Source of the DNA: Pyrodictiaceae archaeon
GTDB taxonomy: Archaea; Thermoproteota; Thermoprotei_A; Sulfolobales; Pyrodictiaceae
NCBI GenBank assembly: GCA_027036135.1
Contig: JALVSY010000007.1
Coordinates: 388,880-452,879, forward strand
Length of the DNA stretch: 64,000 nucleotides
Direction of reading: 5' to 3'
The position numbers were made by a program, and so were the translations under genes. The notes beneath the pieces were generated by a model. The model was given only the letters and a program-made list of their open reading frames with translations. It was not told the DNA's origin and did not search any database. This document shows, piece by piece, positions 16,073-17,837 of the stretch (position 1 is its first letter; the number at the start of each line of letters is the position of its first letter).

Positions 16073-16702
16073 CTATAGTTCGTGAATACGTATTTTCTTA
16101 TTCTTAACATCTATATCTATACAGCCTTTTTCTGACAAGCTAGCTATAATCTCCCGTGCCCTAGTTTTTGGTATTCCTAAGTCTATTGATAAAGCCTCAA
16201 TAGCCTCTCTAAGCAGTATTTCACCTAGCCCAAAGTATTTCTTAAGAATTTCAAGAGCAGTTATGTCTTTACAAGGACTAGGAGATCTTATGATATTATA
16301 ATTATTATCTATCGTTACATATTCCCTAAGAGTAGTATTGTTTAAATGAATCAGTAAAAGATATGTGCCCTGAGAAGCTCTTTTAACATCTACTTTTTCT
16401 AATCCACAGCTCCTATAATTTCTTATAATGGTGCCAGCTGCCAGTATGAGCCCCTCTGTGCACGTTCCCGGGCACCATAATAATGCATAGTTATTCTCGT
16501 TGTAGCATTCTTTGCAACTTTTGACTATTTCCTCGTTTAGTACGCTTAAAGCAATTCCTCTTAACGTGTCATAGGCGCAGATGGTAAAGTCCCTGAAAAT
16601 GCTAGCTGCGTACTTGGCAAGAGCTAGCGCTAGTCGTTGAGGAGACTTGGGCATGTATAGCCTGTGTCGCTTATCTAGAACCGAGAGAATCAGTGGTTTC
16701 AT
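16073..16702 (-). CDS. Hypothetical protein with C-terminal wHTH-like segment
   Basis: 209-aa AT-rich ORF. Confidence 0.6.
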   Translation of the reverse strand: MKPLILSVLDKRHRLYMPKSPQRLALALAKYAASIFRDFTICAYDTLRGIALSVLNEEIVKSCKECYNENNYALLWCPGTCTEGLILAAGTIIRNYRSCGLEKVDVKRASQGTYLLLIHLNNTTLREYVTIDNNYNIIRSPSPCKDITALEILKKYFGLGEILLREAIEALSIDLGIPKTRAREIIASLSEKGCIDIDVKNKKIRIHEL

Positions 16703-16730: not shown

Positions 16731-16795
16731 GGCCGGGATCAGCGTAGCTCAGCTTCCTCACCGCTCAGCGTTCGTTCCCTCGTCATATCCCAGCC
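16731..16795 (-). ncRNA. Box C/D sRNA (D guide matches tRNA D-arm)
   Basis: C ATGACGA, D' CTGA, C' GTGAGGA, D CTGA, long terminal stem GGCTGGGAT/ATCCCGGCC; guide AGCTGAGCTACG. Confidence 0.9.
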
Positions 16796-16943: not shown

Positions 16944-17020
16944 CAAATCCTGGGCGTGCCTCATATATGTCTTGATACTATACGCTTTTAATTAACCTAT
17001 GGTTTTATGCTGTTTTAGAA

Positions 17021-17087
17021 TGGAGGCCTCGCAACAGCTCCGTAGGGAGCAGGATGAGCGGGGCCGGGACGTATTCACCGCGCCTCC
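17021..17087 (+). ncRNA. Atypical H/ACA-like guide RNA candidate (16S-antisense)
   Basis: GGCCTCGC/GCGGGGCC stem, GGATGA motif, GCTCC-GTAG-GGAGC apical hairpin, 17-nt GGGACGTATTCACCGCG antisense to 16S; TTTTAATTA TATA-like element about 30 nt upstream. Confidence 0.65.
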
Positions 17088-17111
17088 TATCCTCTTCGTT
17101 TTCATCAAACG

Positions 17112-17837
17112 ATGAAAAAGGGATGGTGGGCTCTAGTGTTGACGATAATGGCTACATCGGATGTTCATAGTCCGAGATTCTTGTTGCATTACATGGGCGC
17201 TTTGAGTAAGCATCGTGAAGAATGTAATAGAGTTGAACTTGTGCTTTGGGCCGGAGATATGGTTGAGAAAGGCAATGTTGGGGCCCTTAGGAGCGTTTTA
17301 GAAGCAACCAAACGTATTTGTAATCGGGCTAGAATAGTAGCAGTATTCGGCAACGAGGAGTTCATGGATAGGGAGCACGAGTTTGTTAAAAGTTATCCTG
17401 AGATAGTCTGGCTTAATGACAGTTACTATATTTTTGTCTCGTCAAAGGGCGAGGAGATAGCAATATATGGTACAAGGGGCTCATTAGACAGACCGACAAG
17501 GTGGCAGCGAAAACACATACCGGGTATTGAAAGAATTTATAAAGAGCGTGTAGAGAGGCTTAGAAAAATAGTCAAGGAGCTGAAAAAGAACTATGATAAA
17601 GTTGTAGTGCTCACGCACTATGCGCCAACCTATGTCACCCTAGAAGGCGAAGATAGAAGAATATGGCCCGAGGTTGGTAGCCTATTAATGGAGGCAGCCA
17701 TAAAAGAGGTAAAACCCGCAATCGTTATACACGGTCATGCTCATAACTCTAAGAGGCTTGAAGCGTATATTGACGGTGTGCGTGTGGTTAATGTTGCTTT
17801 TCCCGCGCGAAAAGACGTAGTGATACTAGGTCTCTAG
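17112..17837 (+). CDS. Metallophosphoesterase (calcineurin-like)
   Basis: SDVH, AGD, GNEE, THYAP, HGHAH motifs. Confidence 0.9.
   Translation: MKKGWWALVLTIMATSDVHSPRFLLHYMGALSKHREECNRVELVLWAGDMVEKGNVGALRSVLEATKRICNRARIVAVFGNEEFMDREHEFVKSYPEIVWLNDSYYIFVSSKGEEIAIYGTRGSLDRPTRWQRKHIPGIERIYKERVERLRKIVKELKKNYDKVVVLTHYAPTYVTLEGEDRRIWPEVGSLLMEAAIKEVKPAIVIHGHAHNSKRLEAYIDGVRVVNVAFPARKDVVILGL

What the first reader, a model, noticed from the sequence alone, without database searches (positions are those of the whole stretch)
17021..17087. ACA-less H/ACA-like hairpin with a 17-nt antisense arm to 16S rRNA
Seen: a GC-rich hairpin (GGCCTCGC/GCGGGGCC stem, GGATGA motif, GCTCC/GGAGC cap) flanked 5' by GGAG and 3' by GGGACGTATTCACCGCG, with a TATA-like element upstream and no ACA box. 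Recalled archaeal 16S reads CGCGGTGAATACGTCCC-TG-CTCC. The 3' arm pairs with the 17 nt before the UG and GGAG pairs with CTCC after it, which is pseudouridylation-pocket geometry (U near E. coli position 1384). Inference: an atypical Cbf5 guide of the ACA-less kind reported in Pyrobaculum, or a new long-antisense rRNA guide/chaperone class. The terminal GGAGGC/GCCTCC pairing could give an alternative closed conformation.
Basis: partly seen in the sequence, partly recalled or inferred. Interest (0 to 1): 0.78.

Follow-up and report, generated by a model that had tools for sequence, protein, structure and literature searches.

The report
ACA-less pseudouridine guide for 16S neck
A conserved kinked hairpin in heat-loving archaea carries a tail that pairs perfectly with the organism's own small-subunit ribosomal RNA, and it is likely a small guide RNA predicted to direct conversion of one uridine at the ribosome's neck into pseudouridine: a known kind of RNA with a target I found in none of the papers searched.

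Summary
The feature is real. Window 17025-17065 forms an 8-bp stem with a K-turn-like loop and a cap. The arm at 17066-17083 matches this genome's 16S at 18 of 18 bases, and the next 16S base is U1347 (E. coli 1384, numbering recalled). I collected 76 distinct copies from Desulfurococcales-type archaea. The stem covaries strongly, and the arm starts 8 nt after the K-turn in 72 of 76, the 10-layer spacing of productive archaeal H/ACA guides. Cbf5, Nop10, Gar1 and L7Ae genes are present. Other hairpins of this build in the genome also place a U at that point. Best reading: an atypical (Pyrobaculum/Sulfolobus-type) H/ACA guide with one long 3' guide. It is a new member with a probably new target, not a new class. 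Transcript, protein binding and modification are untested. The scan noted ACA-less guides for other targets, and the tRNA-Tyr intron module seen in passing, on other DNA, but not this family.

The parts
16986..16995 (+). TATA-like AT-rich element, predicted promoter; would put the start near 17015-17021
   Evidence: Sequence. In the family, A+T rises to about 70-80% at 27-35 nt upstream of the stem, and TATA-like hexamers occur within 50 nt in 46 of 76, mostly 27-43 nt upstream. Archaeal TATA spacing is recalled; the start site is inferred.
17022..17025 (+). Optional 5' guide (GGAG), complementary to 16S 1349-1352; overlaps the first stem base
   Evidence: 4 bp or more in 15 of 76 copies against about 1% of 1900 upstream control positions; duplex only -5.1 kcal/mol
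17025..17032 (+). 5' strand of the 8-bp stem below the K-turn
   Evidence: Covariation: 159 double-change cells against 51.5 shuffled, 0 of 500; pairs 2-7 kept in 50-52 of 52 unbulged copies
17033..17035 (+). Non-bulged strand of the predicted K-turn (AAC; A at the 2n position makes it a non-standard K-turn)
   Evidence: GAC 45, AAC 25, TAC 4, CAC 2 as parsed (three rows later re-registered to GAC); its C pairs with G17052 in 74 of 75 rows; A.A at 2b.2n folds and binds L7Ae in other RNAs (PMC4316175 passages)
17037..17050 (+). Apical cap hairpin (5 bp, 4-nt loop); sequence and length vary across the family
17052..17057 (+). Bulged strand of the predicted K-turn (GGATGA), predicted L7Ae site
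   Evidence: GGATGA in 64 of 76, G-N-R-TGA in all 76 (the pattern required part of it, that did not); same motif pair as Pyrobaculum sR205
17058..17065 (+). 3' strand of the stem; the 8-nt ruler between K-turn and guide
   Evidence: 8 nt in 72 of 76, 9 nt in 4; 27 of 28 among copies found without any spacer constraint
17066..17083 (+). 3' guide, 18/18 Watson-Crick complement of own 16S nt 1329-1346; next target base is U1347
   Evidence: arms of 14-18 nt across the family; G.U-preserving variants in L134 and L136
17084..17103 (+). Pyrimidine-rich tail, likely the 3' end or terminator; no ACA box in this copy
   Evidence: 73% pyrimidine on average after the arm across the family; terminator role inferred

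Best explanation
This conserved K-turn hairpin with an 18-nt tail complementary to the host's 16S rRNA is likely an atypical (lower-stem-less, here ACA-less) H/ACA guide RNA that is predicted to bind L7Ae and Cbf5-Nop10-Gar1 and would direct conversion of 16S U1347 (E. coli position 1384, recalled) to pseudouridine. Shown: hairpin, covariation, fixed 8-nt spacing, complementarity, U next to the duplex, host genes. Inferred: transcription from the upstream TATA element; L7Ae on the K-turn; the 10-layer stem setting the register; the long guide-substrate duplex (14-18 bp) stacking under the stem and standing in for the missing short guide plus lower stem (14-16 nt in classic guides); action on pre-16S before the neck helix closes. 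U1347 is complementary to A894 at one end of that helix, so the modification would likely stiffen a terminal A-U pair at high temperature.
For: 18/18 match to native 16S with U next. 76 distinct copies with one anatomy; a covariance model separates 26 of 151 genomes at 44.9 bits or more from 16S-antisense hits at 36.2 or less. Stem covariation 0.570 against 0.170 shuffled and at most 0.155 for slid partners. 8 bp plus two sheared pairs equals the 10-layer stem of 14 of 15 productive P. abyssi guides (PMC4652768). Target is U in 85 of 86 16S matches. ACA follows the arm in 31 of 76 against 12.3 +/- 3.0 shuffled, a trace of H/ACA ancestry. Arm variants keep pairing through G.U. Nearest Rfam family is the H/ACA-like PyrR205, 22.2 bits, E 0.022. 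Cbf5, Gar1, Nop10, L7Ae families each hit the genome. Siblings in G000 with arms of 8.5 points or more at the 8-nt register and a well-formed stem point at U in 3 of 3 (16S U45, 23S U314, 23S U929; rule set after seeing the list; U is 12-13% of rRNA); the U45 guide pattern is in 19 of 29 family genomes. The same hairpin in the tRNA-Tyr intron puts U35, a known H/ACA target (PMC2651775, PMC11077068), at the same point. A single 3' guide suffices for sR148 in vivo; 3' pairing matters most and ACA is dispensable in typical geometry (PMC7075261).
Against: No transcript, binding or modification data. Pseudouridine at this site is not in the S. islandicus list or the P. abyssi table (only 20% of 16S probed). 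Only 15 of 21 predicted P. abyssi sites were modified in vitro, so geometry is not proof. For a classic Haloferax guide, pairing on both sides was needed in vivo, yet 61 of 76 copies lack a 4-bp 5' arm. The arm is far longer than classic 5-6 nt 3' guides, partly because the searches demanded 13-14 matches. The target is almost invariant, so guide-target covariation could not be tested. The base facing the target U is A in 22 of 76 copies and could pair with it. A looser sibling scan showed no excess of U (9 of 35; its tRNA set was contaminated by false introns). Folding z-score is -0.97. Kin are not independent in any of the counts.
Confidence: 0.8

Rival explanations
1. The RNA binds L7Ae/Cbf5 and pre-16S but works mainly as a folding chaperone: its long arm holds the segment just before the 3' strand of the neck helix open during 30S assembly, with little or no modification.
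For: The 14-18 bp duplex is very stable (-38 kcal/mol at 37 C, -8 at 95 C) and longer than catalysis needs. Guide RNAs acting as chaperones on both strands of helix 28 were proposed for N. equitans C/D RNAs (PMC4644070 passages). The 5' guide is mostly absent.
Against: A chaperone has no need to fix the arm exactly 8 nt from the K-turn with a U next; siblings with other targets use the same ruler and also end at U. The family was not found in family f13 (0 of 26; no high score among 34), whose 16S has the same site, so it is not needed for assembly in general.
Confidence: 0.11
2. It guides a different change at or near this site: another base modification by an unknown K-turn-binding enzyme, or pseudouridine at a neighbouring U such as U1350 by a shifted pairing.
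For: Atypical guides can serve two nearby uridines (sR148). Several modifications in crenarchaeal 16S are unassigned. L137 pairs with a 4-nt target bulge, so the register is flexible.
Against: Geometry matches the Cbf5 rule exactly; ACA is enriched after the arm; no box D (CUGA) follows the arm in this copy, which rules against a C/D guide.
Confidence: 0.06
3. It is a cis element in the leader of the downstream metallophosphoesterase gene (an L7Ae-bound K-turn controlling translation), or a relic of inverted 16S sequence.
For: It lies about 30-50 nt before that ORF, and the same gene follows in 16 of 75 loci. L7Ae control of mRNAs is reported (PMC5539422, search listing and abstract start only).
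Against: Other lineages have unrelated neighbours in varied orientations; the arm is conserved while flanks are not; a relic would not keep a covarying stem or G.U-preserving arm changes.
Confidence: 0.03

Closest known systems
Atypical H/ACA RNAs of Sulfolobus islandicus (sR109, sR136, sR148, sR563; PMC11077068)
   Same: Single K-turn hairpin, no lower stem, no ACA, rRNA-complementary single-stranded flank; sR148 has only a 3' guide.
   Different: Different target (their 16S sites are U8, U747, U1009, U1162); here the 3' guide is 14-18 nt; this family was not found in the f13 genomes searched, and no Sulfolobaceae name is among the 77 records.
Pyrobaculum H/ACA-like sRNAs sR203-sR210, nearest Rfam RF02803 PyrR205
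   Same: Same hairpin build; sR205 has the same AAC / GGAUGA K-turn halves; many keep a vestigial ANA box (PMC4652768 section 16).
   Different: Score 22.2 bits against a cut-off of 35.6, hairpin only; the first six letters of this arm occur 0 times in the supplement that lists those RNAs; they have long 5' flanks, this family mostly does not.
Classic archaeal box H/ACA sRNAs (P. abyssi Pab19, Pab91 and others; PMC2377435)
   Same: 10-layer stem from pocket to K-turn; target U at the stem base; Pab19 tolerates three unpaired target bases as this copy would if the bottom pair stays closed.
   Different: They have a lower stem, a 5-6 nt 3' guide and ACA 14-15 nt from the pocket; this copy has none of these.

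Membership tests
Atypical H/ACA (H/ACA-like) guide RNAs | Single hairpin with K-turn or K-loop | tested here: met
   sequence-level K-turn with A at 2n in this copy, G in most copies; 3D fold not shown
Atypical H/ACA (H/ACA-like) guide RNAs | About 10 stacked layers from pocket to the K-turn G.A pairs | tested here: met
   8 nt plus 2 sheared pairs in 72 of 76; rule
Atypical H/ACA (H/ACA-like) guide RNAs | Lower stem and canonical ACA box missing | tested here: met
   No ACA in this copy; only a 3-6 bp unconserved end closure; ACA vestigial in 31 of 76 relatives
Atypical H/ACA (H/ACA-like) guide RNAs | 3' guide pairs with a host RNA and leaves a U at the stem base | tested here: met
   18/18 to own 16S, U1347 next; U in 85 of 86 16S matches
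Atypical H/ACA (H/ACA-like) guide RNAs | 5' guide (usual, absent in sR148) | tested here: inconclusive
   4 bp possible here at the cost of the bottom stem pair; 15 of 76 copies
Atypical H/ACA (H/ACA-like) guide RNAs | Host encodes Cbf5, Nop10, Gar1, L7Ae | tested here: met
   all over Pfam cut-offs (catalytic residues of Cbf5 not inspected)
Atypical H/ACA (H/ACA-like) guide RNAs | Expressed as a discrete RNA bound by Cbf5 and L7Ae | not testable with these tools
   Needs RNA-seq and pull-down
Atypical H/ACA (H/ACA-like) guide RNAs | Target U is pseudouridylated in a guide-dependent way | not testable with these tools
   Needs mapping or reconstitution
Classic box H/ACA sRNAs | Lower stem of about 8-9 bp | tested here: not met
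Classic box H/ACA sRNAs | ACA/ANA 14-16 nt from the pocket | tested here: not met
   Absent here; ACA starts at arm position 16 in only 5 of 76 relatives
Rfam RF02803 PyrR205 | Score at or above 35.6 bits and the same guide | tested here: not met
   22.2 bits, model positions 4-47 only; no gathering-level hit
Box C/D sRNAs | Guide directly followed by box D or D' (CUGA) | tested here: not met
   No CUGA after the arm; Rfam C/D hits fall on a different neighbour, not on this element

The most novel reading that the evidence does not exclude
The family is a substrate-completed H/ACA RNA: the 14-18 bp duplex with pre-16S rebuilds the missing lower stem, so the RNP only takes its active shape on its target, and by gripping the strand next to helix 28 it doubles as an assembly chaperone for the 30S neck in archaea living near boiling point, an archaeal counterpart of the processing-type H/ACA RNAs of eukaryotes.
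Probability: 0.15. Interest if true: 0.68.

Novelty: new member of a known kind. Interest (0 to 1): 0.4.

Why it matters
It extends atypical H/ACA guides beyond Pyrobaculum and Sulfolobus, whose wider spread the 2024 S. islandicus paper lists as open, and predicts a pseudouridine at the end of the 30S neck helix that I found in no paper searched. The 76 natural variants form a series (5' arm present or absent, ACA present or absent, arm 14-18 nt) that makes it testable how Cbf5 finds its target without lower stem and ACA. The rule found here (K-turn, 8 nt, arm, U) also yields further unannotated guides in the same genome.

Tried and rejected
RNA runs: no RNA holder was listed; this says nothing on expression. 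Rfam at gathering level: only a tRNA in the window. Single-sequence folding: not above shuffles; two hand-written structures were mis-registered or incomplete, so their energies were discarded and redone. Closed GGAGGC/GCCUCC form: -28.6 against -29.3 kcal/mol at 37 C and -1.2 against -4.1 at 90 C, feasible here but a 6-bp closure in only 5 of 76; rejected as a family feature. A second pairing of 17042-17053 with 16S 1345-1356 (12 bp): the needed GGAGC is in 8 of 76 related copies only; treated as incidental. Guide-target covariation: not testable, site nearly invariant. Wider phylum search with a loose pattern (53 of 301 genomes): 10 outside-class hits were fetched and none showed both hairpin and long arm; the rest were not inspected. 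Two blast near-matches elsewhere in the genome look like coding sequence. Sigma-70 scan does not suit archaea. Loose sibling scan with tRNAs was uninformative. Rows dropped before the count of 76: L005 (no hairpin), L004 and L075 (cut by contig end), L085 (16S itself), nine records with bacterial or Micrarchaeota titles and no hairpin (L048, L063, L069, L073, L096, L099, L101, L107, L108), 19 duplicates. The two G034 matches were not counted as guides: one lies in its variant 16S, the other was not inspected. Bernick et al. 2012 is not held. Supplements of PMC11077068 could not be read, and the modification table of PMC11698992 was not found as text; either could list this site.

Full report
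Observation. The element lies in a 409-nt gap between a 209-aa ORF of no clear family on the minus strand (ends 16702) and a metallophosphoesterase ORF (from 17112). The genome holds one 16S gene. The arm 17066-17083 is its exact complement over 18 nt (16S 1329-1346), followed in the rRNA by U1347, G1348 and CUCC. GGAG and the stem share G17025, so the two-sided pocket needs either the bottom stem pair to open or three unpaired target bases; the latter is tolerated by P. abyssi Pab19 (PMC2377435 passages). Folding energy alone is unremarkable (z -0.97), but the central stem pair has probability 0.99 at 37 C and 0.59 at 90 C without protein.

Family. A pattern for the arm that excludes normal 16S genes matched 42 of 201 genomes of the order, with no match for the reversed control in most; 28 of the 30 loci fetched show the whole hairpin, one is cut by a contig end and one is a chance match. 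A scan of the named genome collection gave 77 stretches, of which 66 show the hairpin; their titles include Pyrodictium, Hyperthermus, Aeropyrum, Staphylothermus, Thermogladius, Ignisphaera and many unnamed Desulfurococcales or Thermoprotei. Near-identical copies of the window element are in records titled Pyrodictiaceae (L083, L084). After removing 19 duplicates, 76 distinct copies remain. A covariance model found 26 of 151 genomes of the class at 44.9 bits or more; the next scores (36.2 or less) are 16S antisense where inspected (L138, L140) or partial hairpins. The spread is patchy: 18 of 27 in the own family, 0 of 26 in f13. These are samples with incomplete genomes. Gene neighbours differ between lineages.

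Anatomy. The stem covaries: 159 cells with change on both sides against 51.5 +/- 5.5 shuffled (0 of 500), score 0.570 against at most 0.155 when partners are slid (related sequences inflate the shuffle test). In 52 unbulged copies, pairs 2-7 hold in 50-52, while the bottom pair holds in only 32. The internal loop reads as a K-turn: NAC on the 5' strand, G-N-R-UGA on the 3' strand, with a C-G pair in 74 of 75 rows. This copy has A at 2n; such K-turns fold and bind L7Ae (PMC4316175 passages). The arm starts 8 nt after the last GA in 72 of 76 copies, and in 27 of 28 found without any spacer constraint. Eight pairs plus two sheared pairs give the 10 layers found in 14 of 15 productive P. abyssi guides and in the crystal structures (PMC4652768 passages). 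Arms are 14-18 nt (searches required 13-14, so shorter arms are missed). Two variants change A to G opposite a target U, and one has lost 4 nt. The target base is U in 85 of 86 16S matches; the site is too constant for a covariation test.

A 5' arm of 4 bp or more occurs in 15 of 76 copies, well above the 1% control but a minority. ACA is absent here but follows the arm in 31 of 76, against 12.3 +/- 3.0 in shuffles (0 of 1000), mostly 18-22 nt from the pocket. The closed end-to-end fold costs only 0.7 kcal/mol at 37 C in this copy but is not conserved.

Internal controls. Cbf5, Gar1, Nop10 and L7Ae families each hit the genome. A scan for the same hairpin gave 46 candidates. Among those with at least 6 Watson-Crick stem pairs, a 5-bp cap and an rRNA arm scoring 8.5 or more at the 8-nt register, all three besides ours end at a U (16S U45, 23S U314, 23S U929), where U is 12-13% of the rRNA. 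That rule was set after seeing the list, and a looser scan showed no excess (9 of 35). The U45 pattern recurs in 19 of 29 family genomes. The tRNA-Tyr intron carries the same hairpin with 4-8 nt complementary to its own anticodon arm, ending at U35, in 21 of 22 loci parsed out of 24 examined. U35 is a proven H/ACA target in Sulfolobales (PMC2651775 abstract and passages; PMC11077068 section 19).

Mechanism. Shown: structure, spacing, complementarity, host genes. Inferred: the RNA is transcribed from the TATA element, binds L7Ae and Cbf5-Nop10-Gar1, pairs with pre-16S through the long 3' guide and presents U1347 for isomerisation. In classic guides, the 3' guide helix and lower stem stack to span 14-16 nt; the 14-18 bp substrate duplex could replace both, which would explain the arm length and the ACA remnants behind it. 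U1347-C1352 is complementary to 16S 889-894, which I recall as helix 28, the 30S neck, with U1347 equal to E. coli 1384. Against this: no expression or modification data, 6 of 21 predicted P. abyssi sites failed in vitro, and a classic Haloferax guide needed both arms in vivo. Confidence 0.8. Rivals: chaperone (0.11; precedent in PMC4644070 passages), other modification or site (0.06), cis element or relic (0.03).

Comparison. It works like, and meets every testable feature of, the atypical H/ACA RNAs of Pyrobaculum and S. islandicus (PMC11077068 passages and sections 19, 24). It is not a classic H/ACA, not C/D, and not a member of Rfam PyrR205 (22.2 against 35.6 bits). The site is absent from the S. 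islandicus table and the P. abyssi table, and the start of the arm is absent from the supplement listing Pyrobaculum sR203-210. Human and Arabidopsis have a pseudouridine in helix 28 (PMC8351944 passage), by my recalled numbering 7 nt further 3'. Paper searches showed no description of this family. The library lacks most subscription papers, Bernick 2012 is not held, and two supplements were unreadable. The scan's own index has no look-alike of this sequence, but has ACA-less guides for other targets and the tRNA-Tyr intron module in other genomes; those are unchecked AI notes.

Verdict. A real, conserved RNA gene; a new member of a known kind with a probably new target.

Noticed in passing
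G000:C16:294120-294290 (L142); relatives L166-L187: tRNA-Tyr(GUA) has a 96-nt intron holding the same K-turn hairpin. Eight nt after the K-turn, 4-8 nt pair with the tRNA's own anticodon arm and end at U35 (21 of 22 loci parsed; two copies change a G.U to A-U), and a C-run before the stem can pair with G37 and the intron start. It looks like a cis-acting guide for pseudouridine 35. The scan had noted this module in other genomes; a 2014 review calls the tRNA-Trp C/D intron the unique case.
   Followed up: partly
window 16737-16790, minus strand: Probable box C/D sRNA, divergent from the finding (Rfam sR2 28.8 bits, E 0.0002, below cut-off). Its D guide is complementary to the 11-nt D-arm sequence of several tRNAs; no rRNA target was found for the D' guide.
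   Followed up: partly
G000:C7:697973 (+), L143: Sibling K-turn hairpin with a 12-nt arm placing 16S U45 at the pocket; pattern in 19 of 29 family genomes.
   Followed up: partly
G000:C7:296175 (-), C7:992003 (-), C16:239563 (+), C7:925993 (+): Further candidate guides: 23S U929 (9-bp 3' arm plus 7-bp 5' arm with a two-base gap), 23S U314, 16S U184 (just after the SRP RNA gene), and 23S U2099 in helix 69 (helix name recalled).
   Followed up: no
G000:C16:150326, C7:738620, C16:126471, C7:340226: Well-formed hairpins of the same build with no rRNA arm scoring 8 or more; possible tRNA guides or orphans.
   Followed up: no
L137 (G014:C1:532810-532891): Family member whose arm lacks 4 nt, so the 16S would bulge four bases between a 6-bp and an 8-bp helix.
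   Followed up: no
G034:C201:1845-1895: The only 16S of 86 with C instead of U at the predicted target position; whether that genome has the guide was not checked.
   Followed up: no
window 16073-16702, minus strand: 209-aa ORF with no Pfam family above cut-off, kept next to the RNA in 15 of 75 loci.
   Followed up: no
window 17098-17120: Small AT-rich inverted repeat just after the tail, also seen in the closest relatives; may mark the 3' end.
   Followed up: no
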